DNA from: Escherichia phage vB_EcoA_fTuEco01
Reading direction: 5' to 3' (one strand)
Sequence record: MZ031013.1
Length of the DNA stretch: 44,320 nt
Part shown: positions 1 to 44,320 of the stretch, one piece after another
Layout: the number at the start of each line of letters is the position of its first letter
Position numbering within the stretch: position 1 is the first letter of the stretch
Program-made: the position numbers and the translations under genes
The notes under the pieces: model-generated
Told to the model about the DNA's origin: nothing
What the model saw: only the letters and a program-made list of their open reading frames with translations
Databases searched by the model: none

Positions 1-110
1 TCTCGCCCTCGCCCTCGCCGGATTTCCCCCATATGGGGCCGCGCTGCGGTTGGCTTGGGAATTGGGCTAGGCTGGGCCGATTTCATCGGGTAGGCTGAGG
101 GTTGCCTTGT
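1..110. repeat. Left genome end, terminal-repeat-like region: (CGCCCT)x3 at 3..19 and perfect palindrome CCCCATATGGGG at 27..38
   Basis: Direct tandem CGCCCT x3 and the palindrome are read directly from the sequence. T7 has an analogous TTCCCCCATAGGGGG-type element in its terminal repeat. The extent of the repeat cannot be set because the right end is not in the window. Confidence 0.4.
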
Positions 111-680
111 ACTAGCTTAGTGGTACACAAGGGGAACGCCTAGGAAGCGCTGGGGCACGCCTTAGTATTGGACAAGGTGATTGCCTTAGTGCAACCGCTT
201 AGGGCTTACACAGGCCGTTTTAGGGCCATTCCTGAGCGTTTGACAGGGTGGGCGGGCGTGGGCTATCTGTTCGTTTCGCTCCACTGCGTTACGCTACACT
301 CACCGCGCTTGTGTACCTTAGGTTATTCCTTGATGGATAGCTTAGGTTAGCCTTAGTGGACTACCTTAGTTAAAGCCTTAGTGCTTAGCTTAGTATCAGC
401 TTAGTAGTGTACCTTAGTCAGACTTAGTGTCTTCTCTTAGTGATTGCACATGCAAGCATGTAAGATGCCATTAGGTCGCGGTCGGTAGACCGCTAAAGAA
501 AGAGAATAGTAATAAGATGCAGTAGGAGGAACACCAGAAACCTAGCCAACCTAGCCTATCCTAGCTCTGTATCTATTGCTTTCCTTAGTCTCACATGTTA
601 GACAACCTATGTTTATCTTAGTAGTTGTGACATGTATCACATAAATAATCTATCTTAGTGAAACTTAGTGTTGACATAGG
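110..680. repeat. Array of more than 15 short (C)CTTAGT(G) repeats at irregular spacing, analogous to the heptamer arrays flanking T7 terminal repeats
   Basis: CTTAGT recurs at about 114, 165, 186, 330-440 (about 10 copies, e.g. gccttagtggactaccttagttaaagccttagtgcttagcttagtatcagcttagtagtgtaccttagtcagacttagtgtcttctcttagtg), 586, 618, 653 and 664. The same motif reappears at the right edge of the window (44049, 44138, 44268). Confidence 0.6.
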
Positions 681-700
681 CAATCAACTGGTATACATTA
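638..700 (+). promoter_or_regulatory. Candidate host sigma70 early promoter: TTGACA (671..676), 17-nt spacer, TACATT (694..699)
   Basis: Perfect -35 hexamer with a 17-nt spacer and a 4/6 -10 hexamer, upstream of the early gene block. No transcript data. Confidence 0.4.
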
Positions 701-829
701 GCAATCACTGAGACGGACCTAGCAAGCTGTCTCAGGTTATAAGCAGGAGAATTGATGCGTAAGCCATAGCTAGTGGATGTAGTCGCATGAAGGCTTGAGT
801 AAGGGGCCGCTTAATACCTTCTTCCTCTG

Positions 830-905
830 GAGACAACGCTTATAACACTGCTCTTTAACAATCTGCTTAGTGTAACCTATGTATGCCGTGGTTAATTACT
901 TATTG
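830..905 (+). promoter_or_regulatory. Early intergenic structured element 1 with conserved core CTCTTTAACAATC (851..863); RNase III-site-like
   Basis: The core is shared with three other early intergenic elements. It also contains tgtaacctatgtatgccgtgg (873..893), which is the near-exact reverse complement of 1644..1663 in element 2. Confidence 0.35.
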
Positions 906-919
906 AATAGGAATTAACT

Positions 920-1015
920 ATGAATTATGAAGAAATGTATGAAGTCTATTTCGACTCATTAGATGAAGGAGAAGAAGCATTATCCTTCGCTGAGTTTGTG
1001 GAGGCCTTATCGTGA
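920..1015 (+). CDS. Hypothetical early protein, 31 aa, acidic
   Basis: ATG at 920; the TGA stop overlaps the GTG start of the next ORF (GTGA). Not in the ORF track because it is under 60 aa. Confidence 0.3.
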   Translation: MNYEEMYEVYFDSLDEGEEALSFAEFVEALS

Positions 1016-1239
1016 AAGTACAGGTAAGGGCTTACAACATGCCAGTTGATGAGATTCAGCACTTTCTAGATAAAGGCTATGATTTATGTAAGATGCGCAC
1101 ACCAGATAACTATGACTACTCACCTAAATATCTGCATTATATTGATCTTAAGATGGGTAAGAAGTTAGTTATTACAGGTACTGCATATAACCGCATTATC
1201 AAAGTTCTTAAAGAGGGTGCTAATCATGACATTAAATAA
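1012..1239 (+). CDS. Hypothetical early protein, 75 aa
   Basis: ORF track entry with a GTG start coupled to the upstream stop. No recognisable motif. Confidence 0.5.
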   Translation: MKVQVRAYNMPVDEIQHFLDKGYDLCKMRTPDNYDYSPKYLHYIDLKMGKKLVITGTAYNRIIKVLKEGANHDIK

Positions 1240-1405
1240 CCGTGAACTGCACGTTCTCTTCACCCTGTTATGTTACATGATTCGTAACAACGAATTACTT
1301 ACAGATGATGAGTTAGCCTTGTATCACCGCTTTCTTAACGAAGGTTGGACCGATATAGTTAATCAATACCGTAACATGATAGATGAGTTGAGGGAGGGTA
1401 AATAA
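1226..1405 (+). CDS. Hypothetical early protein, 59 aa
   Basis: ATG at 1226 preceded by an AAGAGGG RBS at 1211..1217; the track ORF starts at an upstream GTG at 1217. Confidence 0.5.
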   Translation: MTLNNRELHVLFTLLCYMIRNNELLTDDELALYHRFLNEGWTDIVNQYRNMIDELREGK

Positions 1406-1629
1406 TGTATCAACATGAGGTATTCTTTGAATCAGCTAGCGAAGCTATTCGCTTCCGTGATGATATGATGCAAGCTGGTGTAGGCGTTGATGTGTATCAC
1501 TATTTGATAGACTACGACACTGAATATCACCGAGTTACCTTAGTATCTGAGTATGACAACCAAGTCATTACTGAGTATCTAGGTAGTGAAGATTATGATT
1601 ACGATGAAGTAATCACGACAAATCTCTAA
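1405..1629 (+). CDS. Hypothetical early protein, 74 aa, acidic
   Basis: ATG overlaps the upstream stop (TAATG). Rich in Asp/Glu/Tyr. Confidence 0.5.
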   Translation: MYQHEVFFESASEAIRFRDDMMQAGVGVDVYHYLIDYDTEYHRVTLVSEYDNQVITEYLGSEDYDYDEVITTNL

Positions 1630-1637
1630 ATTAACTA

Positions 1638-1666
1638 TTGACAACCACGGCATACAAGGTTACATT
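1638..1666 (+). promoter_or_regulatory. Candidate host sigma70 promoter: TTGACA (1638..1643), 17-nt spacer, TACATT (1661..1666)
   Basis: Same -35/-10 hexamers and spacing as the candidate at 671. Confidence 0.4.
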
Positions 1667-1745
1667 AAGCATCAAGACGGCGACGTCTTTAAACATCCCG
1701 CTCTTTAACAATCGGGCTAGTGCCTTGGTAGGCTAACTACTTACT
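1640..1745 (+). promoter_or_regulatory. Early intergenic structured element 2 with core CTCTTTAACAATC (1701..1713); RNase III-site-like
   Basis: Conserved core plus flanking complementary segments, lying between two early ORFs. Confidence 0.35.
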
Positions 1746-1755
1746 AAGGTGAACT

Positions 1756-1968
1756 ATGAACTACTGCGACATCGCTCACGAATTACGCATGGAACGTGAG
1801 AAACAAGAGAAGCGGATTATCAAGAAGATGGCTGTACTGCTTGCACACTATAAGGCAGACAAACAGCCAACACATGATGAGTTCGTGGACTTCTGTAACA
1901 TGTATCTTAATGTGAGTAAGGCCACTGGTTACAGATGGCTTAAAGCACTGAATGATGGAGAATTGTAG
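1756..1968 (+). CDS. Hypothetical early protein, 70 aa, possible small DNA-binding protein
   Basis: ORF track entry; the C-terminal segment VSKATGYRWLKAL looks helix-turn-helix-like. Weak. Confidence 0.45.
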   Translation: MNYCDIAHELRMEREKQEKRIIKKMAVLLAHYKADKQPTHDEFVDFCNMYLNVSKATGYRWLKALNDGEL

Positions 1969-1971
1969 CAA

Positions 1972-2060
1972 TAAGCCAGCTTAATAGCTGGCCTATCAAG
2001 GCACTAACCTAGCCCTTTAACAATCTGGTTTGTGTCTTGATAGGCTTACTAACAGAAAGG
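1972..2060 (+). promoter_or_regulatory. Early intergenic structured element 3 with core CCCTTTAACAATC (2013..2025)
   Basis: Hairpin gccagc-ttaata-gctggc at 1975..1992; arms cctatcaaggcac (1992..2004) and gtgtcttgatagg (2032..2044) are complementary and enclose the core. Confidence 0.4.
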
Positions 2061-2069
2061 TAAATTATC

Positions 2070-2237
2070 ATGGAAACTTTAATCGTTACCACTACAATCA
2101 ACGGCGTAAGTATCAGCATAACTAAGTATTCTTCCGAAGAGTATGAAGTGAATCACGGAATAGCTGCTATGGTGTATGACAACTTGGCAGATGCCGTGGA
2201 GCATTGGATACAGTCATGTAAGGCTGCAATTAAGTAG
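2070..2237 (+). CDS. Hypothetical early protein, 55 aa
   Basis: ATG at 2070 with upstream AGAAAGG; stop TAG at 2235..2237. Under 60 aa, so not in the track. Confidence 0.4.
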   Translation: METLIVTTTINGVSISITKYSSEEYEVNHGIAAMVYDNLADAVEHWIQSCKAAIK

Positions 2238-2244
2238 GAAAGAT

Positions 2245-2360
2245 AAGGCTGGCACTAGCCAGCCTATCAAGGCACAAGCCACGCTCTTTAACAATATGGG
2301 TAGTCGCTTCTTAGTCTGGATAGGTTAAACCTAGGAGATTCTCTTGAGTCTCCTATAATG
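2245..2360 (+). promoter_or_regulatory. Early intergenic structured element 4 with core CTCTTTAACAATA (2284..2296), a further hairpin at 2334..2353 and a perfect TATAAT at 2354..2359
   Basis: Hairpin ggctgg-cact-agccagcc at 2250..2267; arms cctatcaagg and ctggatagg are near-complementary; ggagattc-tctt-gagtctcc forms a second hairpin. Confidence 0.35.
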
Positions 2361-2391
2361 TAACCTAACTAACTAAATGAGGATTAATAAC

Positions 2392-2748
2392 ATGGCTATG
2401 TCTAATAAGACTTACTCTCAGGTTTACAACACCGCTCATGCTGCATTAGTTGAACGTATCTGGGATGATGCTATTGATTGTATCGATAACGCACATGATG
2501 CAATCCATGAGGTGGCGGATAGTGCTGTACCAATCTATTATGCTGACATCTTCTCGGTGATGGCCAGTGAAGGCATCGACCACTTCTTCGAGGATTCTGG
2601 CTTAATGCCAGACACTAAGGATGTGACGGTCGTACTACAAGCCCGTATTTATGAACAACTCACCATTGATTTATGGGAACGTGTTCAAGATATGATTGAT
2701 GCGTACATCGATTCCGCTGAGGATTCAGAAGAAGAGGAGGAAGAATAA
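2392..2748 (+). CDS. ocr: Ocr-like DNA-mimic anti-restriction protein (T7 gene 0.3 homologue), 118 aa
   Basis: The translation MAMSNKTY...[15 protein letters not shown]...[13 protein letters not shown]...[15 protein letters not shown]...EDSEEEEEE matches T7 Ocr as I recall it, nearly residue for residue in the conserved blocks, including the acidic C-terminus. Start moved to the ATG at 2392 to match T7 MAMSN. Confidence 0.85.
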
Positions 2749-2750
2749 AG

Positions 2751-2867
2751 ATGGAAAGGCAATATAACTTCATCTTCTCAGACGGTGTAACCCTGAAATG
2801 TTCCTTACGATTTGCGCAGATTCGTGAGGAAGTACTAGGAACTACATACAAGCCATTTAGCTGACAC
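2751..2867 (+). CDS. Hypothetical early protein, 38 aa
   Basis: ATG at 2751 immediately after the ocr stop, with AGGAGGAAG inside the ocr 3' end acting as an RBS. Confidence 0.3.
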
Positions 2868-2875
2868 TATAAGAG
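2855..2875 (+). promoter_or_regulatory. Degenerate phage-type promoter (ATTTAGCTGACACTATAAGAG)
   Basis: Matches the SP6-type core GACACTATA with a deviant +1 region. It is the most upstream phage-promoter-like site. Confidence 0.35.
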
Positions 2876-2940
2876 AAGGCTTAACAAGGCGTTGCTACGG
2901 TAGCGCCTGATTAAACTTTCACTTACTAGGAGTTAAGATT

Positions 2941-3168
2941 ATGGATTTAGATAGCATCATTATGGCATTTGCTCTTATTGGCTTAAGCTGGTGCTCCTAT
3001 CACCTTTACCGTGAGTTCTTATTTGATAAAGCTAAACGCAAACTAAGAAAGGAAGGCGGTAATTACCTTTGTATAAGAGGTGGCTTAGTCGAATACATTG
3101 CACCTAACGGCATGGAGTGCGCCATTAACAAAGATGCATTTATAGAGACGTGGCATTACATCAAGTAG
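2941..3168 (+). CDS. Hypothetical small membrane protein, 75 aa
   Basis: N-terminal hydrophobic segment IIMAFALIGLSWCSY; GGAG RBS upstream. Confidence 0.5.
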   Translation: MDLDSIIMAFALIGLSWCSYHLYREFLFDKAKRKLRKEGGNYLCIRGGLVEYIAPNGMECAINKDAFIETWHYIK

Positions 3169-3232
3169 CTAGCCTATAGCCTACCTGTGTGGGCTATGTG
3201 ATATTTACTTACCACTATATAAGGTGACTATT

Positions 3233-4117
3233 ATGACTACTGAAAACACCCTCCTGTCTGTCCGCGAAGCTGCAACCGCTGAGATTAAGCAGCATTTGGA
3301 TAATATCGGCACTTCTTACATCAAAGTAGGTGCTTGTCTGAATGAGTTACGCGGAGACTTCGAAGGTCAAAAAGAGTTCTTAGCCTATGTTGAAGCAGAG
3401 TTCGGCATCAAGAAAGCACAATGCTACAAGCTGATGAGTGTAGCCCGTGTCTTTGAAGGTGACGAACGATTCAAAGGCGTGGCTATGCGTGTAATGCTGG
3501 CGCTTGTTCCTTTCGCTGATGAGAGTATCATCATGGAGAAGGCCGCAGAACTTGCCGCAGAGGGCAAGCTGGACACTAACGCCGTAAACGCCCTAATTGA
3601 GTCTAAGAAAGAGCCAAAGGCCGAGACGGTACAATCTAAGGCTGAGCCAGTAAAACCGCAGGAGAACGCGGCTGAGGCCGCAGAATCACAGGAAACGCAA
3701 GCGCCGCAGGTAGTGCCGCCAATGAGTGAGCCGGACACCGACGAATCCGCACCGTGGGAGGGCGAAAGCAAGCCGGAAGCACCTAAGGCTGCGCCTCTGG
3801 ACAACACTGCTAACACAGAGAACGCCGCCATGGCTGGCCTGTTGGCACAAATTAAGGCACTGACTGAGCAATTACAGGCGGCTAACGACCGCATCGCAGC
3901 TCTAACCAGTGCACGTGAAAGCAAGAAGGCAGCCGCGCCTATGCTCCCACAATTCAAATCCAAATGTTTCTATGCTCGCTTGGGTTTGAGTGCTGAGGAG
4001 GCAGAGAAGAAAACAGCAGTGAACAAGGCACGCCGCGAACTGGTTAAACTGGGATACGGTGAAGGCCATGAGGCATGGCCCTTAATCTCTGAGGCAGTAG
4101 AAGAATTAACTAAGTAA
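3233..4117 (+). CDS. Hypothetical early protein, 294 aa, with a low-complexity Ala/Glu/Pro/Lys-rich linker and a C-terminal coiled-coil
   Basis: ATG at 3233 preceded by AAGGTGA. It sits at the position of T7 gene 0.7 but has no kinase motifs that I can see. Confidence 0.55.
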   Translation: MTTENTLLSVREAATAEIKQHLDNIGTSYIKVGACLNELRGDFEGQKEFLAYVEAEFGIKKAQCYKLMSVARVFEGDERFKGVAMRVMLALVPFADESIIMEKAAELAAEGKLDTNAVNALIESKKEPKAETVQSKAEPVKPQENAAEAAESQETQAPQVVPPMSEPDTDESAPWEGESKPEAPKAAPLDNTANTENAAMAGLLAQIKALTEQLQAANDRIAALTSARESKKAAAPMLPQFKSKCFYARLGLSAEEAEKKTAVNKARRELVKLGYGEGHEAWPLISEAVEELTK

Positions 4118-4180
4118 CCTTATCGGTGGCATCTTCTTAGGTGTCACCTATTAAGGTTTCTTTCACTAGGAGTAAACAAG

Positions 4181-6808
4181 ATGCAAGACCTACACGCTAT
4201 TCAACTTCAACTTGAAGAAGAAATGTTTAACGGCGGTATCCGTCGCTTTGAAGCGGACCAACAACGCCAGATTGCATCCGGTAATGAATCAGACACGGCA
4301 TGGAATCGCCGTTTATTGTCCGAGTTAATCGCGCCAATGGCTGAAGGTATTCAGGCATACAAGGAAGAGTATGAAGGTAAAAGAGGCCGTGCACCGCGTG
4401 CATTAGCTTTCATTAACTGCGTAGAAAACGAAGTGGCAGCATATATCACGATGAAAATCGTTATGGATATGCTGAATACAGACGTTACCTTACAAGCAAT
4501 CGCTATGAATGTAGCGGACCGCATCGAAGACCAAGTACGTTTTAGCAAGCTGGAAGGTCACGCAGCTAAGTACTTTGAGAAAGTGAAGAAGTCGCTTAAG
4601 GCTAGCAAGACTAAATCTTATCGTCATGCGCACAACGTAGCGGTAGTAGCTGAGAAATCTGTTGCTGACCGTGACGCGGATTTCTCCCGTTGGGAGGCAT
4701 GGCCTAAAGATACCTTGCTACAAATCGGTATGACCTTGCTAGAAATACTGGAAAATAGTGTATTCTTCAATGGTCAGCCTGTCTTTCTTCGCACCTTGCG
4801 CACTAATGGTGGCAAGCATGGCGTTTACTACTTACAGACCAGTGAACACGTAGGGGAATGGATTACAGCATTTAAAGAACATGTAGCGCAACTTAGCCCG
4901 GCTTATGCACCTTGCGTTATACCTCCGCGTCCGTGGGTTTCTCCTTTTAATGGCGGTTTTCACACTGAGAAGGTAGCAAGTCGTGTGCGTCTTGTTAAAG
5001 GCAGCCGTGAACACGTCCGCAAGCTGACCAAAAAGCAAATGCCAGCGGTTTACAAGGCTGTTAACGCTTTGCAGGCGACTAAATGGCAGGTTAACAAGGA
5101 AGTTTTACAGGTTGTTGAGGACGTAATACGGCTTGATTTAGGCTATGGCGTACCTTCCTTCAAACCACTCATCGACCGCGAGAACAAGCCAGCTAATCCG
5201 GTGCCGTTAGAGTTCCAGCACCTGCGAGGCCGTGAACTGAAAGAAATGTTAACACCGGAACAATGGCAAGCCTTCATCAACTGGAAAGGTGAATGCACCA
5301 AGCTGTATACCGCTGAGACTAAGCGCGGCAGCAAATCGGCGGCGACCGTCCGCATGGTAGGGCAGGCCCGTAAATACAGCCAATTTGACGCAATATACTT
5401 CGTGTATGCTCTGGACAGCCGCAGCCGCGTCTACGCGCAATCTAGCACGCTCTCTCCGCAATCAAACGACTTAGGCAAGGCATTGCTCCGTTTTACCGAA
5501 GGGCAGCGTCTTGATAGCGCTGAGGCGCTTAAGTGGTTTTTGGTGAACGGGGCTAATAACTGGGGTTGGGATAAGAAAACTTTTGACGTGCGCACCGCTA
5601 ACGTGCTGGATAGTGAATTTCAAGACATGTGCCGCGACATTGCAGCGGATCCGCTGACCTTCACTCAATGGGTAAATGCCGACTCCCCTTACGGCTTCCT
5701 TGCATGGTGCTTTGAATATGCGCGTTATCTGGATGCACTGGATGAAGGCACGCAAGACCAATTCATGACGCACCTCCCAGTCCATCAAGATGGTAGTTGT
5801 TCTGGTATCCAGCACTACAGTGCTATGCTACGCGATGCAGTAGGTGCGAAAGCGGTAAACCTTAAGCCCTCTGACTCACCTCAAGATATTTATGGTGCCG
5901 TTGCGCAGGTAGTAATTCAGAAGAATTATGCATACATGAATGCAGAGGATGCGGAAACCTTCACTTCTGGCAGCGTGACTTTAACAGGTGCAGAACTTCG
6001 TAGCATGGCTAGTGCGTGGGATATGATAGGAATCACTCGCGGCCTGACCAAAAAGCCTGTAATGACACTACCTTATGGCAGCACACGTCTAACCTGCCGT
6101 GAATCAGTGATTGATTATATCGTTGATTTGGAAGAAAAAGAGGCCCAACGGGCTATTGCGGAAGGGCGTACCGCCAATCCTGTACATCCTTTTGATAATG
6201 ACCGCAAAGACAGCCTGACACCTAGCGCAGCTTATAACTATATGACAGCTTTAATCTGGCCTTCTATTTCGGAAGTGGTTAAAGCTCCTATAGTGGCAAT
6301 GAAAATGATTCGTCAGCTTGCACGTTTCGCAGCTAAAAGAAACGAAGGCTTAGAATATCCCTTACCAACTGGCTTCATCTTGCAACAAAAGATAATGGCT
6401 ACCGATATGCTCCGCGTATCCACTTGCTTGATGGGTGAAATCAAGATGAGTCTCCAGATTGAAACAGATGTAGTTGATGAAACGGCAATGATGGGTGCGG
6501 CTGCTCCTAACTTCGTCCATGGTCACGATGCTAGCCACCTGATTCTGACTGTATGTGACCTAGTGGATAAAGGTATTACATCCATTGCAGTCATCCATGA
6601 TTCTTTCGGTACTCATGCAGGACGTACCGCAGACCTGCGGGATAGCTTAAGGGAAGAAATGGTTAAGATGTATCAAAACCATAATGCCCTGCAAAACCTG
6701 CTAGATGTGCACGAAGAGCGTTGGTTAGTAGACACCGGAATCCAAGTACCAGAGCAAGGAGAGTTTGACCTTAACGAAATCTTAGTTTCAGACTATTGTT
6801 TCGCATAA
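4181..6808 (+). CDS. Single-subunit DNA-directed RNA polymerase (T7 gene 1-like), 875 aa
   Basis: [22 protein letters not shown] and the C-terminal ILVSDYCFA correspond to T7 RNAP motifs ([22 protein letters not shown], ...FAFA). Size is close to SP6 RNAP. Confidence 0.95.
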
Positions 6809-6816
6809 TATTAATA

Positions 6817-6845
6817 GGCCATTCCTTAGGGAGTGGCCTTTTTCT
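6817..6845 (+). terminator. Rho-independent terminator after the RNAP gene
   Basis: ggccattcc-ttag-ggagtggcc stem (one G-U pair) followed by TTTTTCTTT. Confidence 0.65.
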
Positions 6846-6882
6846 TTACCTACTACCTGTAACATTTCATTAACATAAAAGT

Positions 6883-6898
6883 GTCTCACATGTGAGAC
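6883..6898. repeat. Conserved perfect palindrome GTCTCACATGTGAGAC, copy 1
   Basis: 16-bp perfect inverted repeat read from the sequence; it ends 2 nt before the promoter at 6901. Confidence 0.8.
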
Positions 6899-6900
6899 TT

Positions 6901-6921
6901 ATTTACCGGACACTATAGGAT
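6901..6921 (+). promoter_or_regulatory. Phage RNAP promoter (ATTTACCGGACACTATAGGAT)
   Basis: Match to the window consensus ATTTACyGGACACTATAGAAG (SP6-type). Confidence 0.75.
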
Positions 6922-6924
6922 AGC

Positions 6925-7065
6925 CGTCGGAGACGGGAAAGAAAGGGAAGATAAAGGATATAAAGGAAGTAATAGGTATTAAAGGTTATATAGGTTATCT
7001 AGGAATACCTAGGAATACCTATTACCTTCTTCCTTCCTCTTATTACCACTTAGAGGAAGGGCAGA
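6925..7065. other. Purine-rich / pyrimidine-rich AT-rich block with internal inverted repeat and tandem TAGGAATACC x2; candidate primary replication origin
   Basis: gggaaagaaagggaagataaaggatataaaggaagtaataggtatt ... aggaatacctaggaatacctattaccttcttccttcctcttattacc; the two halves are near reverse complements. The block is flanked by two phage promoters, as in the T7 primary origin downstream of gene 1. Confidence 0.45.
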
Positions 7066-7073
7066 CCTAGGTT

Positions 7074-7089
7074 GTCTCACATGTGAGAC
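7074..7089. repeat. Conserved palindrome GTCTCACATGTGAGAC, copy 2
   Basis: Perfect 16-bp palindrome, 5 nt upstream of the promoter at 7095. Confidence 0.8.
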
Positions 7090-7094
7090 TTCGT

Positions 7095-7115
7095 ATTTAC
7101 CGGACAGTATAGATA
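7095..7115 (+). promoter_or_regulatory. Phage RNAP promoter variant (ATTTACCGGACAGTATAGATA)
   Basis: Consensus match with C to G at -7 and a deviant initiating region. Confidence 0.6.
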
Positions 7116-7142
7116 AGATTAACTCACTTTGGAGATTTAACC

Positions 7143-7271
7143 ATGCGTAACTTTGAGAAGATGGCCCGTAAAGCTAACCGTTTTGACATAGAAGAAGGGC
7201 AGAAGAAAGGCAAGAAGCTGAATAAGCCTGTCCGTGACCGTACATCTAAACGCGCAGCGTGGGAGTTCTAA
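7143..7271 (+). CDS. Hypothetical small basic protein, 42 aa
   Basis: ATG at 7143, basic composition (MRNFEKMARKANRF...). Under 60 aa, so not in the track. Confidence 0.4.
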   Translation: MRNFEKMARKANRFDIEEGQKKGKKLNKPVRDRTSKRAAWEF

Positions 7272-7274
7272 GTT

Positions 7275-9263
7275 ATGGCTATTATTCAGAATGTACCGTG
7301 TCCTGCTTGCCAAAAGAACGGACATGATATTACTGGCAATCATTTAATGATCTTTGACGACGGGGCAGGATACTGTAACCGTGGTCACTTCCATGATAAC
7401 GGTAAACCTTATTACCACAAGCCAGGGGGTGGCATCGAGATAACCGAATTGCCTATTACTGGCAATATCAAATATACACCTTCTCAATTCAAAGAAATGG
7501 AGAAGGAAGGGAAGGTAAGCGACCCTAAGTTGCGCGCCATCGCACTTGGTGGTATGCGTATGAAAGACCGTTGGGAGGTTATGAATGAGCAAGAAAGGGC
7601 AGACCAAGAAGCAGAGTGGAAACTTGATGTTGAATGGTTCCTCACGCTTAAGCGTAAGAATCTTGTTTCCCGACACATTCGCGGCGACATTTGCGCATTG
7701 TATGATGTACGTGTCGGACACGATGAAGATGGTAGAGTCTCACGGCATTACTATCCACGCTTCGAGAAAGGTGAGCTAGTAGGCGCTAAGTGTCGCACAT
7801 TACCTAAAGACTTTAAGTTTGGTCATTTAGGTAAACTCTTTGGTATGCAAGATCTTTTCGGTATGAATACTTTGTCTCACGTGTTAGACAAGGGAAGACG
7901 AAAGGATTGCTTGCTTATTGTAGGTGGTGAACTTGATGCACTAGCAGCACAGCAAATGCTCCTTGATTCTGCCAAGGGTACTAAGTGGGAAGGCCAGCCT
8001 TACCATGTATGGTCTGTCAATAAAGGTGAGTCTTGCCTTGAAGAGATAGTACAGAACCGTGAACACATCGCCCAATTTAAGAAGATTATATGGGGTTTTG
8101 ATGGCGACGAGGTGGGGCAGAAGCAGAATCAGCAAGCGGCTCGCCTGTTTCCTGGCAAATCCTATATCCTTGAATACCCTTCTGGTTGCAAAGATGCTAA
8201 CAAGGCATTGATGGCTGGCAAGGCTAAAGAGTTTGTTGATGCTTGGTTTAATGCCAAGTCATCTGATGAAGTCTTTGGTAGCCAGATTAAATCTATCGCA
8301 TCTCAAAGGGATAAGCTCAAGGCTGCACGTCCAGAGCAAGGACTATCATGGCCTTGGCCTAAGCTGAACAAGGTAACGCTAGGTATTCGTAAGAACCAGC
8401 TTATCATTGTAGGTGCAGGTTCTGGTGTAGGTAAGACTGAGTTCCTCCGCGAAGTGGTTAAACATCTCATTGAAGAGCACGGTGAATCTGTAGGCATCAT
8501 TTCTACAGAAGACCCGATGGTCAAGGTGTCCCGTGCTTTTATCGGTAAGTGGATTGATAAGCGCATTGAGTTACCGCCAACCAATGACCCGAAAGAAGAC
8601 GGATACCGTGAGGTGTTCGACTACACCGAGGAAGAAGCTAACGCTGCCATTGATTATGTGGCTGATACAGGAAAGCTATTTGTGGCTGACCTAGAAGGCG
8701 ACTATTCTATGGAGAAGGTAGAGCAAACTTGCCTAGAGTTTGAGGCTATGGGCATTTCTAATATCATCATTGATAACTTAACGGGGATTAAATTAGATGA
8801 GCGTGCTTTTGGTGGGAAGGTTGGTGCACTTGATGAATGCGTCAAACGAATTGGTACTATCAAAGACCGACATGCGGTTACGATTTTCCTTGTCTCTCAC
8901 CTTACACGTCCTCCGGCAAACCGTACCCAACACGAAGAAGGTGGCGAAGTTATCCTTTCTGACTTCCGAGGCTCAGGCGCTATCGGATTCTGGGCATCTT
9001 ACGCCTTGGGGATTGAGCGTAATACAAGAGCTGAAACGCTTGATGAAAGGACTACCACGTACATCTCGTGTGTCAAAGACCGCGATCAAGGTATCTACAC
9101 TGGAACCAAGGTCATGCTTAAGGGTGACATTCAAACCGGACGTTTAATGGAACCACAAGCTAGAACAAGGTCATTTGATACAGGTGAAACAAGGCAGCAA
9201 GAGGTGCCTGATTTACCGGACACTATAGAAGAGACAACCTTTGACGATGAACAGGAGTTTTAA
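7275..9263 (+). CDS. DNA primase/helicase (T7 gene 4-like), 662 aa
   Basis: N-terminal zinc ribbon CPACQ...CNRGH; Walker A GAGSGVGKTEF; acidic C-terminus DDEQEF ending in Phe, as in T7 gp4 (...TDF). Confidence 0.95.
   Translation: MAIIQNVPCPACQKNGHDITGNHLMIFDDGAGYCNRGHFHDNGKPYYHKPGGGIEITELPITGNIKYTPSQFKEMEKEGKVSDPKLRAIALGGMRMKDRWEVMNEQERADQEAEWKLDVEWFLTLKRKNLVSRHIRGDICALYDVRVGHDEDGRVSRHYYPRFEKGELVGAKCRTLPKDFKFGHLGKLFGMQDLFGMNTLSHVLDKGRRKDCLLIVGGELDALAAQQMLLDSAKGTKWEGQPYHVWSVNKGESCLEEIVQNREHIAQFKKIIWGFDGDEVGQKQNQQAARLFPGKSYILEYPSGCKDANKALMAGKAKEFVDAWFNAKSSDEVFGSQIKSIASQRDKLKAARPEQGLSWPWPKLNKVTLGIRKNQLIIVGAGSGVGKTEFLREVVKHLIEEHGESVGIISTEDPMVKVSRAFIGKWIDKRIELPPTNDPKEDGYREVFDYTEEEANAAIDYVADTGKLFVADLEGDYSMEKVEQTCLEFEAMGISNIIIDNLTGIKLDERAFGGKVGALDECVKRIGTIKDRHAVTIFLVSHLTRPPANRTQHEEGGEVILSDFRGSGAIGFWASYALGIERNTRAETLDERTTTYISCVKDRDQGIYTGTKVMLKGDIQTGRLMEPQARTRSFDTGETRQQEVPDLPDTIEETTFDDEQEF
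9211..9231 (+). promoter_or_regulatory. Phage RNAP promoter embedded in the 3' end of the primase/helicase gene
   Basis: ATTTACCGGACACTATAGAAG is a perfect consensus; in frame it encodes LPDTIEE. Confidence 0.7.
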
Positions 9264-9437: not shown

Positions 9438-9461
9438 GCTTGTCTCACATGTGAGACAGGC
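9438..9461. repeat. Conserved palindrome (gcttGTCTCACATGTGAGACaggc), copy 3, extended stem followed by a T-rich run
   Basis: Core 9442..9457 is perfect; the flanks extend the stem to about 10 bp; followed by TCTTATT. Terminator-like. Confidence 0.7.
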
Positions 9462-10611: not shown

Positions 10612-10635
10612 GGTTGTCTCACACGTGAGACAGCC
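10612..10635. repeat. Conserved palindrome variant (ggttGTCTCACACGTGAGACagcc), copy 4
   Basis: Stem arms gtctca and tgagac are conserved, with a CACG centre variant. Confidence 0.65.
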
Positions 10636-15469: not shown

Positions 15470-15485
15470 GTCTCACGTGTGAGAC
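15470..15485. repeat. Conserved palindrome variant GTCTCACGTGTGAGAC, copy 5
   Basis: Arms are conserved with a CGTG centre; 15 nt upstream of the promoter at 15501. Confidence 0.7.
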
Positions 15486-15500
15486 AAATCGGTGTCCGGT

Positions 15501-15523
15501 ATTTACTGGACACTATAGAAGAG
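15501..15523 (+). promoter_or_regulatory. Phage RNAP promoter (ATTTACTGGACACTATAGAAGAG)
   Basis: Perfect consensus. Confidence 0.8.
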
Positions 15524-31910: not shown

Positions 31911-31932
31911 CTTGTCTCACATGTGAGACAGG
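31911..31932. repeat. Conserved palindrome (cttGTCTCACATGTGAGACagg), copy 6, followed by TCTTTA
   Basis: Perfect 16-bp core at 31914..31929, lying between two internal virion protein genes. Confidence 0.7.
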
Positions 31933-44026: not shown

Positions 44027-44164
44027 GCAGGTTAATATCTTAGTGTACACAAGGGCAGACCTATGATAGCTCACAGCACACCTATGAGTGCCGCTCTGGA
44101 GTCTATGACTTGTCCCCTGACTATCTAGGTTTGCTCTTAGTGTGTGTTTCAAAAGGAGGTATGT

Positions 44165-44254
44165 ATGCTGTATATAATGGCTGGTAGCTTATGGGTAATC
44201 ATGGCTTTCTTCTTTATAGCATGGTTATTAGGTTGGAGGCCAAGATGTTCATAG
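44165..44254 (+). CDS. Hypothetical hydrophobic peptide, 29 aa
   Basis: AAAAGGAGGT RBS 5 nt upstream; a single hydrophobic segment. Confidence 0.25.
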   Translation: MLYIMAGSLWVIMAFFFIAWLLGWRPRCS

Positions 44255-44320
44255 GGCGCACCTTAGTGTTGTACAAGGATTAACCAAAGTCAAAATTTTG
44301 ATATAGGCGTGTGTGAGGTG

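What the first reader, a model, noticed from the sequence alone, without database searches (positions are those of the whole stretch)
920..4117. Early gene block: Ocr plus about ten small uncharacterised proteins and a 294-aa protein at the T7 kinase position
Ocr (2392..2748) is recognisable, which implies type I restriction-modification (and possibly BREX) pressure on this phage. The neighbouring small ORFs (acidic 74-aa, HTH-like 70-aa, membrane 75-aa) and the 294-aa protein with a long low-complexity linker are the most likely places for host-takeover or further anti-defence functions. None has motifs I can assign.
Basis: partly seen in the sequence, partly recalled or inferred. Interest (0 to 1): 0.5.

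Follow-up and report, generated by a model that had tools for sequence, protein, structure and literature searches.

The report
Phage early genes; palindrome-reading gp6 protein
This is the already-sequenced early gene block of a K1E/K1-5-type coliphage (Ocr plus orphan small genes), but its 294-aa protein, until now 'hypothetical', looks like a site-specific DNA-binding protein whose reading helix changes in step with a 16-bp palindrome scattered over the phage genome.

Summary
The block is real and is the class I (early) region of a Vectrevirus, 99% identical to published genomes. Ocr is confirmed (Pfam E=8e-41). There are eight small ORFs rather than about ten. They are genus-restricted orphans with no assignable function.

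The 294-aa protein (K1E/K1-5 gp6, SP6 gp7) is not a kinase analogue. It is conserved in 213 phage records from several Autographiviridae subfamilies. It combines a ParB/KorB-type helix-turn-helix domain (DUF3102-related), a disordered linker, a coiled coil and a J-like domain that lacks the HPD motif.

New here: the genome carries eight copies of GTCTCAC-N2-GTGAGAC, against 0.2 expected by chance. Related phages carry the same element in at least four alleles, one allele per genome. The allele tracks residue 66 of the gp6 recognition helix: K with TC, N/H with CA, R with TA, E with CG at base pairs 4-5. This held in about 45 genomes and in two lineages found from the DNA motif alone. T7 has neither gp6 nor the element.

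Best reading: gp6 is the sequence-specific reader of these sites. Binding itself is inferred, not shown. Four rrn-type boxA motifs also sit in the early intergenic hairpins.

The parts
627..699 (+). Two sigma-70-type early promoter candidates (GTGACA-18-TATCTT at 627-656; TTGACA-17-TACATT at 671-699). A third, TTGACA-17-TACATT, lies at 1638-1666.
   Evidence: Consensus scan. These are consensus matches only. The position matches the T7 A promoters.
853..862 (+). boxA-like motif 1 (tGCTCTTTAACAATc) in the early leader
   Evidence: CTTTAACAAT occurs 4 times, all in early intergenic DNA, against 0.1 expected. The motif is also in the early leaders of K1E, K1-5, SP6, phi-A318, Achelous and T7. Identity to the E. 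coli rrn boxA is from my own knowledge.
1703..1712 (+). boxA-like motif 2 (cGCTCTTTAACAATc), between the 74-aa and 70-aa ORFs
1993..2043 (+). Long hairpin (CCUAUCAAGGCAC...GUGUCUUGAUAGG) with boxA-like motif 3 (2015-2024) in its apical loop. It is preceded by a GC hairpin at 1975-1992. It looks like an RNase III-type processing signal.
   Evidence: RNA fold -34.7 kcal/mol, z = -5.45, 0 of 200 shuffles fold as well. Aligns with elements 2 and 4.
2286..2295 (+). boxA-like motif 4 (cGCTCTTTAACAATa), upstream of ocr, after the GC hairpin at 2246-2265
920..1015 (+). 31-aa acidic ORF (SP6 gp2-like)
   Evidence: phrog_2061 E=1.5e-15. 78% identical to SP6 998-1099.
1012..1239 (+). 75-aa basic ORF, unknown function
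   Evidence: phrog_19860 E=2.9e-49. Among the compared loci it is found only in KAW1A4500.
1226..1405 (+). 59-aa ORF (K1-5 gp1 / SP6 gp3-like), unknown function
   Evidence: phrog_9275 E=6e-38. 97% identical to K1-5 gp1 and 65% to SP6 gp3.
1405..1629 (+). 74-aa strongly acidic ORF (K1E/K1-5 gp2), unknown function, fast-evolving
   Evidence: pI 4.05. Present in 62 phage records, all Vectrevirus-like. 46 clusters at 66-99% identity, none annotated.
1756..1968 (+). 70-aa ORF (K1E gp2.5) with a C-terminal HTH-like stretch (VSKATGYRWLKAL)
   Evidence: Pfam HTH_23 E=0.011, below cut-off. Present in 21 phage records. Only 3 clusters among 5.8 billion proteins.
2070..2237 (+). 55-aa ORF, the weakest gene call in the block
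   Evidence: phrog_9374 E=5.6e-4 only. No tblastn match in K1E, K1-5, SP6 or KAW1A4500.
2392..2748 (+). Ocr (DNA-mimic anti-restriction protein)
   Evidence: Pfam PF08684 E=8e-41, 139 bits against a cut-off of 25. phrog_2568. 69% identical to T7 gp0.3 but only 52-61% to K1-5 and K1E Ocr. 29 D/E of 118 residues, pI 4.05.
2751..2864 (+). 37-aa ORF (K1E/K1-5 gp4), always immediately after ocr
   Evidence: phrog_11746 E=2.1e-28. 95-97% identical in K1E and K1-5, and 75% in an unannotated SP6 ORF at 2006-2101.
2855..2872 (+). Phage-RNAP promoter-like sequence ATTTAGCTGACACTATAA inside the early block, upstream of the 75-aa ORF, gp6 and the RNAP gene
   Evidence: 3 mismatches to this phage's own promoter consensus. 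It is one of 12 matches in the window against 0.03 expected.
2941..3168 (+). 75-aa ORF (K1E gp5) with a hydrophobic N-terminus, possibly a membrane anchor
   Evidence: phrog_21597 E=2e-55. Present in 31 phage records. Kyte-Doolittle 19-residue maximum of 1.42 at residue 1.
3233..4117 (+). gp6-family protein, 294 aa (K1E/K1-5 gp6, SP6 gp7)
   Evidence: phrog_4571 E=1e-129. 213 phage records. 141 representative clusters at 50% identity. AF2 model built with the alignment has pLDDT 83.
3260..3607 (+). gp6 residues 10-125: ParB/KorB-type HTH DNA-binding domain (DUF3102-related)
3410..3454 (+). gp6 residues 60-74, the predicted recognition helix (KKAQCYKLMSVARVF). K66 (3428-3430) and S69 (3437-3439) are the positions that co-vary with the palindrome allele.
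3608..3817 (+). gp6 residues 126-195: disordered E/A/P-rich linker
   Evidence: pLDDT 37-58. Composition.
3818..3928 (+). gp6 residues 196-232: long single helix, probably a coiled coil that dimerises the protein
   Evidence: AF2 helix H196-232. Dimerisation is inferred.
3944..4114 (+). gp6 residues 238-294: J-like domain without HPD (the equivalent position reads YGE, within GYGEGH)
588..603 (.). Palindrome site 1, GTCTCACATGTTAGAC (1 mismatch), left end, upstream of the early promoters
6883..6898 (.). Palindrome site 2, GTCTCACATGTGAGAC, at -35 to -20 of the first phage promoter after the RNAP gene and its terminator (6816-6839)
7074..7089 (.). Palindrome site 3, upstream of the second phage promoter (7095-7112). 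Sites 2 and 3 flank an AT-rich repeat region at the position of T7's primary origin.
   Evidence: The origin analogy is from my own knowledge of T7.
7874..7889 (.). Palindrome site 4, GTCTCACGTGTTAGAC, inside the primase/helicase ORF (codons SHVLD). Type-B phages have GTCCAACGTGTTGGAC (SNVLD) at the same place. A perfect type-A right arm would create a TGA stop codon in this frame.
   Evidence: Codon reading taken directly from the sequence.
9442..9457 (.). Palindrome site 5, embedded in a hairpin extended by 7 pairs that include G-U, followed by a U-rich tail, after the primase gene
10616..10631 (.). Palindrome site 6 (GTCTCACACGTGAGAC), extended hairpin upstream of the DNA polymerase gene
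15470..15485 (.). Palindrome site 7 (GTCTCACGTGTGAGAC), 16 bp upstream of the phage promoter at 15501-15518
31914..31929 (.). Palindrome site 8, extended hairpin between two large late genes

Best explanation
Positions 920-4117 are the host-RNA-polymerase-transcribed early operon of a K1E/K1-5-type phage.

Transcription probably starts at sigma-70 promoters near 627, 671 and 1638. The transcripts carry four rrn-type boxA motifs inside intergenic hairpins. I infer that these load the Nus factors so that Rho cannot stop the polymerase, and that the hairpins are RNA processing sites.

The operon encodes three kinds of product:
- Ocr, a DNA mimic that blocks type I restriction.
- Eight small proteins restricted to this genus, whose functions remain unassigned.
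- The conserved 294-aa gp6 protein, encoded last, just before the phage RNA polymerase gene.

gp6 is not a kinase substitute. It is a sequence-specific nucleic-acid-binding protein. Two N-terminal ParB/KorB-type HTH heads are held together through a flexible 70-residue linker, a coiled coil and a J-like domain. They read the two half-sites of GTCTCAC-N2-GTGAGAC.

That palindrome occurs eight times on the phage genome. Three copies sit just upstream of phage promoters, two of them flanking the probable replication origin. One copy is at the left end, one is inside the primase gene and three lie in hairpins between genes.

Residue 66 is position 17 of the classical HTH motif, the same position as Gln33 of 434 repressor. 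It appears to read base pairs 4-5 of the half-site.

The most likely role is to mark phage DNA and tune the early-to-middle switch, meaning phage-polymerase transcription and/or replication initiation. The J-like domain would then be the effector or partner-binding module.

What is shown: the domain folds, the existence and statistics of the sites, and the co-variation. What is inferred: binding itself, DNA rather than RNA as the ligand, dimerisation, and the downstream role.
For: Identity of the block: 98.7-99.5% identical to published Vectrevirus genomes; annotation of K1E, K1-5 and SP6. Ocr: Pfam E=8e-41.

boxA: 4 copies against 0.1 expected, all in early intergenic DNA. Also present in the early leaders of six other phages, including T7. 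The hairpin around motif 3 has z = -5.45.

gp6 folds:
- AF2 pLDDT 83.
- DUF3102 in 29 of 90 relatives and DnaJ in 7 of 90.
- J domains are the top profile hits in PDB.

Sites: 8 copies against 0.21 expected.

Co-variation between gp6 and the sites:
- Alleles A (GTCTCAC) and B (GTCCAAC) never occur together in one genome, in 28 loci.
- Residues 66 and 69 separate A from B within an otherwise invariant helix.
- By RNAP identity, Vectrevirus (A) is nested among type-B lineages, and the Erwinia phages (A) are an outgroup. So there were at least two independent switches.
- Colwellvirinae, with only 35-37% identical gp6 but K66, have GTCTCAC-N3-GTGAGAC.
- Shewanella phiY2 (K66) has GTCTCAY..RTGAGAC. 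Marinomonas CB5A has a rewritten helix and GTTCGAGATCTCGAAC.
- Proteus PM116 (N66, K69) is type B. The three R66 phages have GTCTAG..CTAGAC.
- The RNAP columns that separated A from B fail on these added lineages.
- A motif-only scan found two new lineages with several sites. Both encode gp6 with K66, as predicted.

Control: T7 has no gp6 homologue and no copy of the motif.

Sites are kept inside coding sequence, with the allele switch accompanied by an amino-acid change (H/N in primase).

The gene is early and lies next to the RNAP gene in every annotated relative checked.
Against: No binding has been measured. The link rests on correlation, with perhaps 5-6 independent allele changes.

Any RNA hairpin is also a DNA palindrome. 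About 29% of perfect sites (25 of 87) have strand-specific flank pairing with 45 G-U pairs, against 3 sites in the mirror test. So at least some sites work as + strand RNA hairpins. One was annotated as a terminator in phage PM116.

Only 3 of the 12 phage promoters have a site upstream, so gp6 is not a general promoter factor.

The query protein itself does not reach significance for DUF3102 or DnaJ in Pfam. The domain calls rest on relatives and on a predicted structure.

In KorB, base-specific contacts come partly from outside the HTH (my own knowledge), so the mapping of residue 66 to base pairs 4-5 is by analogy with 434 repressor.

Other phage proteins beyond the roughly 10-kb flanks were not screened for co-variation.

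The Ralstonia phage Reminis element is only tentatively the same kind of site.

The J-like domain lacks HPD in 0 of 90 members, so canonical DnaK activation is unlikely and its role is open.
Confidence: 0.6

Rival explanations
1. The palindromes are primarily RNA hairpins in phage transcripts (terminators, pause sites, processing sites or stability elements). Either gp6 reads them as RNA, or they are read by the phage or host RNA machinery. On this view gp6 is an RNA-hairpin-binding regulator such as an antiterminator or processing factor, or it is unrelated to the sites.
For: 25 of 87 perfect sites have at least 6 of 7 extra flank pairs, with 45 G-U pairs on the + strand. Only 3 sites qualify in the mirror (A-C) test. 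The window sites at 9442, 10616 and 31914 are 13-14-bp hairpins followed by U-rich tails. A homologous site in PM116 was annotated as a Rho-independent terminator. In type-B phages the common variant is GTCTAAC, which gives a U-G wobble on the + strand, rather than the mirror variant.
Against: About 70% of sites have no extension. Several lie inside ORFs or directly upstream of promoters, where the downstream transcript would not contain them. All copies switch the same 2 bp per arm together, which a structure-only signal does not need. The fold of the proposed reader is a duplex-DNA-binding HTH of ParB/KorB type. Half-site centres are 9-10 bp apart, as expected for a dimer on B-DNA. The imperfect sites at 588 and 7874 carry a C-U mismatch in mid-stem, which would cripple a 7-bp RNA stem. 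The RNAP residues that could have tracked the allele do not.
Confidence: 0.2
2. gp6 is a host-takeover or anti-defence effector. It might bind host DNA, or titrate or hijack DnaK through the J-like domain. Its correlation with the palindromes would then be phylogenetic coincidence, with some other phage protein reading the sites.
For: The gene is early, next to ocr and at the position of the T7 kinase. The J-like domain suggests a chaperone link. Phage J-domain proteins that target DnaK are known, for example RB43 Rki (my own knowledge). Only proteins within about 10 kb of gp6 were screened as alternative readers.
Against: The gene is conserved in several subfamilies, unlike typical anti-defence cargo. 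No PADLOC or anti-defence family hit. No HPD in 0 of 90 members. The co-variation falls on canonical HTH base-contact positions. It survived out-of-sample tests in distant lineages and in a scan based on the motif alone. It also needs at least two switches within Molineuxvirinae.
Confidence: 0.12
3. The whole block, gp6 included, is dispensable 'junk' early cargo with no conserved mechanism. The small ORFs are over-called.
For: The 55-aa ORF is weakly supported and missing in the closest relative. Several small ORFs occur in only 21-62 records.
Against: Nine of ten ORFs match PHROG families at E<=1.5e-15. Ocr and gp6 are strongly conserved. gp6 domains are modelled at pLDDT above 90.
Confidence: 0.05

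Closest known systems
T7 class I (early) region: gene 0.3 (Ocr) to gene 1
   Same: Same layout. Sigma-70 promoters at the left end, a boxA-like motif in the leader (T7 816-824), intergenic hairpins, ocr, small host-directed proteins, then the phage RNA polymerase gene followed by a terminator.
   Different: Only Ocr is homologous, at 69% identity. No counterparts of T7 0.4, 0.5, 0.6 or 0.7 were found. There are four boxA copies here instead of one. gp6 occupies the slot of the 0.7 kinase but is unrelated to it. T7 has neither gp6 nor the palindrome.
KorB of plasmid RK2 (ParB-family global repressor with 12 palindromic OB operators)
   Different: gp6 lacks the ParB N-terminal CTPase domain and the KorB C-terminal dimerisation domain, and has no detectable sequence similarity. 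It has a linker, a coiled coil and a J-like domain instead. Its promoters are those of a single-subunit phage polymerase. No KorA-like partner is known.
434/lambda-type HTH repressor-operator recognition
   Same: A dimeric HTH reads a two-fold symmetric site with half-sites about one helical turn apart. The specificity-switching residue (gp6 K66) falls at HTH position 17, the position of 434 Gln33, which contacts operator base pairs 4-5 (my own knowledge). The allele difference here is at base pairs 4-5.
   Different: The overall fold is different (ParB-type, about 115 residues). Spacing of both N2 and N3 is tolerated, even within one genome (PM116). There is no lysogeny and no repressor role is evident.
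J-domain proteins (DnaJ PF00226), including viral ones: SV40 large T antigen and phage RB43 Rki
   Same: The C-terminal 57 residues have the J-domain fold and its helix II/III sequence pattern. Like T antigen, the protein combines a J-type domain with a domain that reads short repeated DNA sites near a probable origin.
rrn / lambda nut boxA (NusB-NusE loading site)
   Same: An 11-12-nt match to the rrn boxA GCUCUUUAACAA (my own knowledge), on the transcribed strand, downstream of sigma-70 promoters, repeated between genes.
   Different: No N-like protein or boxB is evident. The motif sits in the apical part of long hairpins that look like RNase III sites. Function was not tested.

Membership tests
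Ocr (Pfam PF08684, DNA mimic anti-restriction) | Sequence match to the family model above the curated threshold | tested here: met
   139 bits against a cut-off of 25, E=8e-41, covering model positions 1-100 of 101. phrog_2568 E=5.7e-49. 69% identical to T7 gp0.3.
Ocr (Pfam PF08684, DNA mimic anti-restriction) | Highly acidic surface that mimics DNA phosphate charges | tested here: met
   29 D/E against 5 K/R in 118 residues, pI 4.05, with a poly-E tail.
Ocr (Pfam PF08684, DNA mimic anti-restriction) | Inhibits type I R-M (and BREX) enzymes | not testable with these tools
   Needs plating on EcoKI/EcoBI/BREX hosts, or binding assays.
T7 gp0.7 protein kinase / host shut-off protein | Ser/Thr kinase domain homology | tested here: not met
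   No kinase family in Pfam, NCBIfam or PDB searches. tblastn of gp6 against the T7 early region finds nothing. The fold is HTH plus J-like.
T7 gp0.7 protein kinase / host shut-off protein | Occupies the slot directly upstream of the RNAP gene as the only large early protein | tested here: inconclusive
   The position matches in this window. But phi-A318 has both a gp6 homologue and an annotated kinase upstream of its RNAP, so the two are not alternatives.
ParB/KorB family | ParB-type HTH DNA-binding domain fold | tested here: met
ParB/KorB family | N-terminal ParB/Srx CTPase domain (the spreading/clamp module) | tested here: not met
   The HTH domain starts at residue 10, so there is no room for it. 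No ParBc hit in Pfam for the query or for the 90 relatives. Longer relatives carry a different helical N-terminal extension.
ParB/KorB family | Cognate palindromic sites (parS/OB-like) on the same replicon | tested here: met
   8 copies against 0.21 expected. The allele co-varies with the recognition helix. Physical binding was not tested.
DUF3102 (Pfam PF11300) | Match to the family model | tested here: inconclusive
   The query gives no hit at E<=0.1. 29 of 90 homologues match, best E=1.5e-7. BFVD DUF3102 proteins match the model at probability 1.0. It is best called DUF3102-related.
J-domain (DnaJ, Pfam PF00226) | J-domain fold (helices I-IV with a helix II/III hairpin) | tested here: met
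J-domain (DnaJ, Pfam PF00226) | Conserved His-Pro-Asp (HPD) motif in the helix II-III loop, required to stimulate the Hsp70 ATPase | tested here: not met
   0 of 90 relatives carry HPD in the last 70 residues. The aligned tripeptide is YGE here, and elsewhere YGR, TAA, NAK, or once NPD. It should be filed as a J-like domain, not a J-domain co-chaperone.
rrn-type boxA antitermination signal | Sequence GCUCUUUAACAA on the transcript | tested here: met
   GCTCTTTAACAAT at 851, 1701 and 2284, and GCCCTTTAACAAT at 2013. The consensus itself is from my own knowledge and was not retrieved from a paper (searches found no spelled-out sequence).
rrn-type boxA antitermination signal | Binds NusB-NusE and suppresses Rho termination of host RNAP | not testable with these tools
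   Needs nusB/nusE mutant hosts, or reporter and termination assays.

The most novel reading that the evidence does not exclude
SP6/K1E-type and Colwellvirinae phages, a large part of the T7 supergroup, carry a previously unrecognised regulatory layer. It consists of a conserved early protein (a DUF3102/ParB-type HTH fused to an HPD-less J-like domain) together with 5-10 dispersed cognate palindromes. Protein and sites co-evolve as a matched pair with a readable one-residue/two-base-pair code. The protein marks phage DNA and controls the hand-over from host to phage polymerase and/or origin firing. That would fill the role played in T7 by proteins these phages lack. It would also be the first functional assignment for a DUF3102-type domain.
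Probability: 0.4. Interest if true: 0.75.

Novelty: new variant of a known kind. Interest (0 to 1): 0.6.

Why it matters
K1E/K1-5/SP6-type phages are used in therapy against capsulated E. coli, Klebsiella and Salmonella, and SP6 polymerase is a standard tool. Yet how these phages run their early-to-middle switch is not understood.

A conserved, early, site-specific DNA-binding protein with its own set of operators would be a new control element in a classic phage family.

The predicted recognition code (residue 66 against base pairs 4-5, with at least four natural alleles) can be tested directly by gel shift and residue swaps. It could supply orthogonal protein-operator pairs for engineering.

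It also cautions against treating every unannotated early gene next to ocr as anti-defence cargo. Here the small ORFs fit that picture, but the large one does not.

Tried and rejected
- Sequence-family searches of all ten ORFs gave only Ocr and sub-threshold noise (Pfam, NCBIfam, PADLOC, PDB by sequence).
- Single-sequence AF2 of gp6 was useless, at pLDDT 52. Foldseek against PDB with the whole two-domain model gave only E>1 hits, although they pointed the right way. The afdb50 library was unavailable.
- Rfam found no known RNA family in 1-7400.
- The kinase-analogue idea was rejected.
- No small ORF has a T7 early-protein homologue.
- Deep homologue searches for the 70-aa and 74-aa ORFs returned only unannotated Vectrevirus proteins, so I propose no function for them.
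- I tested the idea that the palindrome is part of the phage promoter or is read by the phage RNA polymerase. Spacing to promoters varies from 2 to 16 bp, and 5 of 8 sites have no promoter. The two RNAP columns that separated alleles A and B fail on added lineages. Rejected.
- Literature: no open-access paper mentions DUF3102 function, a function for K1E gp6 or SP6 gp7, or the palindrome strings. The SP6 genome paper (PMC374404) is not held, and the K1-5 genome paper was not looked up and was taken to be closed-access. An earlier description of the palindromes or boxA copies there cannot be excluded.
- The boxA consensus could not be retrieved as text from three Nus papers.

Full report
WHAT THE REGION IS. 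The window is a complete-looking 44.3-kb genome of an SP6-like podophage of the genus Vectrevirus (Autographiviridae, Molineuxvirinae). Positions 800-4200 are 98.7-99.5% identical to Escherichia phages vB_EcoM_SHAK7704 and vB_EcoP_KAW1A4500, and 93-95% identical to K1E. An 875-aa single-subunit RNA polymerase gene follows at 4181-6808. So the finding covers the class I early region of a known phage type. All its genes except ocr are annotated 'hypothetical' in K1E, K1-5, SP6 and KAW1A4500.

CHECK OF THE OBSERVATION. Ten + strand ORFs fill 920-4117: eight small ones (31-75 aa), Ocr and a 294-aa protein. Nine match PHROG families at E<=1.5e-15. The 55-aa ORF at 2070-2237 is the weak one, with E=5.6e-4 and no counterpart in the nearest relative.

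Ocr is solid: Pfam PF08684 E=8e-41. It is closer to T7 Ocr (69% identity) than to the Ocr of K1E or K1-5 (52-61%), so ocr alleles are exchanged between phage groups.

The 74-aa protein is acidic (pI 4.05). The 70-aa protein has a sub-threshold HTH_23 match (E=0.011). The 75-aa protein has a moderately hydrophobic N-terminus. The 294-aa protein has a 70-residue linker rich in E, A and P.

THE SMALL ORFS. No library gave a function: Pfam, NCBIfam, PADLOC, or PDB by sequence. None resembles a T7 early protein. Their distribution is narrow and patchy:
- The 74-aa ORF is in 62 phage records.
- The 70-aa ORF is in 21.
- The 75-aa membrane-like ORF is in 31.
All are Vectrevirus-type phages.

Searches of 5.8 billion proteins found only unannotated relatives on contigs of about 44 kb. 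There were 46 clusters at 66-99% identity for the acidic protein and 3 clusters for the HTH-like one.

The 31-, 59- and 37-aa ORFs have SP6 counterparts. The 37-aa ORF always follows ocr directly, including in SP6, where it is not annotated.

That remains a guess, and I assign no function.

CTTTAACAAT occurs four times in the window, against 0.1 expected by chance. All four are on the + strand in early intergenic DNA, at 853, 1703, 2015 and 2286. With flanks they read GCTCTTTAACAAT, which from my own knowledge is the boxA of E. coli rrn operons, the NusB-NusE loading site.

Three of the four lie within related hairpin-rich intergenic elements. The best example is 1993-2043: -34.7 kcal/mol, z = -5.45. 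The same core is present in the early leaders of K1E, K1-5, SP6, phi-A318, Achelous and T7, at T7 position 816 between promoter A3 and gene 0.3.

Sigma-70-type promoters are predicted at 627, 671 and 1638. I infer that host-polymerase early transcription is made Rho-resistant by Nus factors and that the hairpins are RNase III-type processing sites, as in T7. This was not tested and may already be described in the closed-access SP6 and K1-5 genome papers.

THE 294-AA PROTEIN: ANATOMY. It is K1E/K1-5 gp6 and SP6 gp7 (67% identity). Unlike its neighbours it is widely conserved. tblastn finds it in 213 phage records from Escherichia, Klebsiella, Salmonella, Proteus, Erwinia, Pectobacterium, Vibrio, Pseudomonas, Marinomonas, Shewanella and Ralstonia phages, all 43-47 kb. 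There are 141 representative clusters at 50% identity.

In every annotated relative examined, the gene lies in the early region, at most two small genes (or a kinase gene) upstream of the RNA polymerase gene. In Vibrio phage phi-A318 an annotated kinase sits between it and the polymerase gene. So it is not the functional replacement of T7 gp0.7.

With a 90-sequence alignment, AlphaFold2 gives pLDDT 83. There are two confident domains, residues 10-125 and 196-294, joined by a disordered stretch at 126-195.

The N-terminal domain:
- 29 of 90 relatives hit Pfam DUF3102.
- DUF3102 proteins in the viral structure library match the model.

The C-terminal part is a long helix (196-232) followed by a J-domain fold:
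- The family profile's best PDB hit is a J domain (E=0.011), and seven further J domains align to the same segment.
- 7 of 90 relatives hit Pfam DnaJ.
- The catalytic HPD tripeptide is absent in all 90 relatives. The aligned residues are YGE here.

It is therefore a J-like domain, not a bona fide DnaK co-chaperone. There is no ParB CTPase domain either.

THE PALINDROME. A ParB/KorB-type HTH predicts palindromic operators, so I looked for them. GTCTCACATGTGAGAC, allowing up to 2 mismatches, occurs eight times in the window against 0.21 expected. The sites are at 588, 6883, 7074, 7874, 9442, 10616, 15470 and 31914.
- Sites 6883 and 7074 lie at about -35 to -20 of the first two phage promoters downstream of the polymerase gene and its terminator. 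They bracket an AT-rich repeat region at the position of T7's primary origin.
- Site 15470 is 16 bp upstream of another phage promoter.
- Site 588 is upstream of the early promoters.
- Site 7874 is inside the primase gene.
- Sites 9442, 10616 and 31914 are the tips of longer intergenic hairpins.

Only 3 of the 12 phage promoters have a site, so the palindrome is not part of the promoter.

CO-VARIATION TEST. I fetched 29 loci around gp6 homologues from viral contigs and further genomes from GenBank. Every one carries several copies of a 16-17-bp palindrome of the same format at similar positions: the left end, after the polymerase gene, inside the polymerase or primase genes, and after the primase gene.

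The element comes in alleles, and each genome has only one allele:
- Type A, GTCTCAC-N2-GTGAGAC: Vectrevirus and Erwinia phages Era103 and S2.
- Type A with an N3 centre: Vibrio phages phi-A318 and Vp670, and Pseudomonas phage Achelous.
- GTCTCAYGCRTGAGAC: Shewanella phiY2.
- Type B, GTCCAAC-N2/3-GTTGGAC: SP6, many Klebsiella phages, phD2B, PP1, Proteus PM116.
- Type C, GTTCGAGATCTCGAAC: Marinomonas CB5A.
- Type D, GTCTAG-N4-CTAGAC: Klebsiella RCIP0053, Vibrio JSF38, Pseudomonas MR4.

In the gp6 alignment of 14 type-A and 14 type-B genomes, residues 66 and 69 separate the classes within an otherwise invariant helix: KKAQCY-K-LM-S/K against KKAQCY-N/H-LM-N. The other separating columns lie in variable stretches. 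This helix is the second helix of the HTH (AF2 helix 61-74).

The rule then held in lineages not used to derive it:
- K66 in all type-A-arm phages, including those with only 32-37% identical gp6.
- N66 in PM116, which has K69, so residue 66 is the discriminator.
- R66 (with W63) in the three type-D phages.
- A rewritten helix (KSSVSEWCK) in the type-C phage.

By polymerase identity, Vectrevirus (85% to SP6) is nested among type-B lineages. The Erwinia phages (60% to all others) are an outgroup. So protein and sites switched together at least twice within Molineuxvirinae, besides the changes leading to C and D.

Two controls:
- The two polymerase columns that also separated A from B (747 and 824) fail once Colwellvirinae and PM116 are added.
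- T7 has no gp6 homologue and not one copy of GTCNNAC-N2-3-GTNNGAC.

As a blind test I scanned 2.9 million viral contigs for GTCTCACNNGTGAGAC. Of the first 80 stretches examined locally, 12 had two or more sites:
- Six contain a gp6 homologue. Two of these are new distant lineages (L065, L077; 32-34% identity) whose helices read KAQVYKLMK and KAQVYKLMS, that is K66 as predicted.
- Four more are Vectrevirus fragments.
- Two are undetermined.

Residue 66 is position 17 of the classical 20-residue HTH motif (Gly58 is position 9). That is the position of Gln33 in 434 repressor, which contacts operator base pairs 4-5 (my own knowledge). The alleles differ mainly at base pairs 4-5 of the half-site: TC, CA, TA, CG. 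Position 66 is also hypervariable in the wider family, taking K, R, N, H, Q, S or A within a conserved helix.

Selection on the sites is visible inside genes. In primase, type-B phages encode S-N-V-L-D through TCC AAC GTG TTG GAC, while this phage encodes S-H-V-L-D through TCT CAC GTG TTA GAC. The left arm has fully switched. The right arm moved as far as a synonymous change allows, because a perfect type-A arm would create a TGA stop codon.

DNA OR RNA? Any hairpin is also a palindrome, so the ligand is not settled. Of 87 perfect sites in 23 loci, 25 have at least 6 of 7 additional flank pairs when G-U is allowed on the + strand, with 45 G-U pairs. Only 3 qualify when the mirror A-C is allowed instead. 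So a subset certainly also functions as + strand RNA hairpins. One is annotated as a terminator in PM116.

Several points argue against an RNA-only reading:
- About 70% of sites have no extension.
- Some sites are in ORFs or just upstream of promoters.
- The sequence switches in concert in all copies, not merely the structure.
- The half-site spacing is 9-10 bp.
- The mismatched sites 588 and 7874 would have a broken stem.
- The candidate reader has a duplex-DNA-binding fold.

I rate duplex-DNA reading by a gp6 dimer as most likely. The flexible linker would explain tolerance of both N2 and N3 spacing within one genome (PM116).

FUNCTION. What gp6 does once bound is inferred only. The sites cluster in the class II region, around the first phage promoters and the probable origin. 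The gene is expressed just before the polymerase gene. A promoter-like sequence at 2855-2872 could add autoregulated expression. These phages lack homologues of the T7 kinase.

I therefore favour a role in the hand-over from host to phage transcription and/or in origin function, with the J-like domain as the partner-binding module. KorB (a global regulator with dispersed operators) and SV40 T antigen (a J domain plus an origin-binding domain) are the nearest functional analogies. gp6 is a member of neither family.

NOVELTY AND LIMITS. The block as a whole is already known, and Ocr is ordinary. The domain assignment of gp6 and its pairing with a co-evolving palindrome family appear to be new. 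Full-text searches found no function described for DUF3102, no paper on gp6 or gp7 function, and no phage paper containing any of the palindrome strings. The phi-A318 genome paper mentions no palindromes or hairpins and equates gp6 with gene 0.3.

The SP6 genome paper is not in the library, and the K1-5 genome paper was not looked up and was taken to be closed-access, so prior mention of the repeats cannot be excluded. Everything about binding is correlative. A gel shift with a K66N swap would settle it.

Noticed in passing
window 116-669 and 44039-44267: Fifteen + strand copies of CTTAGT lie in the left 670 bp, eight of them at 352-441 spaced 10-13 bp apart. Three more are at the right end. 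The whole window has 53 copies against 28 expected. This looks like the counterpart of the short repeat arrays next to T7's terminal repeats (concatemer junction and packaging region).
   Followed up: partly
window 2392-2748: This phage's Ocr is 69% identical to T7 Ocr but only 52-61% identical to the Ocr of its close relatives K1-5 and K1E. The flanking genes are above 90% identical to those relatives. The ocr gene appears to be exchanged horizontally between phage groups.
   Followed up: partly
window 2855-2872: ATTTAGCTGACACTATAA is a near match to the phage's own (SP6-type) promoter. It lies inside the early block at the end of the 37-aa ORF, upstream of the 75-aa ORF, gp6 and the RNA polymerase gene. 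It may form a positive-feedback promoter for gp6 and the polymerase.
   Followed up: no
window 6920-7070: An AT-rich region with short direct repeats (ggaatacctaggaatacct; aaagg/aagga runs) lies between two phage promoters, each preceded by the palindrome. Related phages have TAGGTATACCTA palindromes at the same place (L025, L029, L031, L034). It is a candidate primary replication origin by analogy with T7.
   Followed up: partly
window 2751-2864; L005 (SP6) 2006-2101: A 37-aa ORF directly follows ocr (stop, 2 nt, ATG) in K1E, K1-5 and this phage. It is 75% conserved in SP6, where it is not annotated. It may be a small partner of Ocr or a translationally coupled gene.
   Followed up: partly
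relatives of gp6: P0129-P0235: Most distant gp6 homologues (340-510 aa) carry an extra N-terminal helical domain of 70-150 residues, with a recurring 'TLK.AK ... (R)TK..F' pattern. Vectrevirus and SP6 lack it. Its function is unknown.
   Followed up: no
L042 (Klebsiella phage RCIP0053) 14439-14610: About 17 tandem copies of the 10-bp unit CTATAGTAAG lie in the region after the RNA polymerase gene, next to three type-D palindromes (14195, 14274, 14718). This is another origin-like repeat array.
   Followed up: no
L040 (Ralstonia phage Reminis) 6637, 10310, 14768, 15003, 17744, 22574: There are six copies of the near-palindrome GTCTCYTATARGAGAC, one of them inverted, in a phage whose gp6 helix reads KAWAFKLMK. 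This may be a fifth allele of the element, or part of that phage's promoters. Unresolved.
   Followed up: partly
L019 12351, L025 12382, L035 4686, L036 13814, L039 5054, L004 5246: Several relatives keep a copy of the palindrome inside the RNA polymerase coding sequence, at the same place in most of them (just upstream of the codons for ...DMCRDIAA...), each in its own allele. This window has lost that copy.
   Followed up: partly
GenBank annotations seen: gp6 homologues are mis-annotated in public records as 'endolysin' or 'andolysin', 'late transcription factor VLTF-4', 'periplasmatic protein' and 'similar to DNA polymerase'. The phi-A318 paper equates gp6 with T7 gene 0.3. None of these is supported.
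   Followed up: yes
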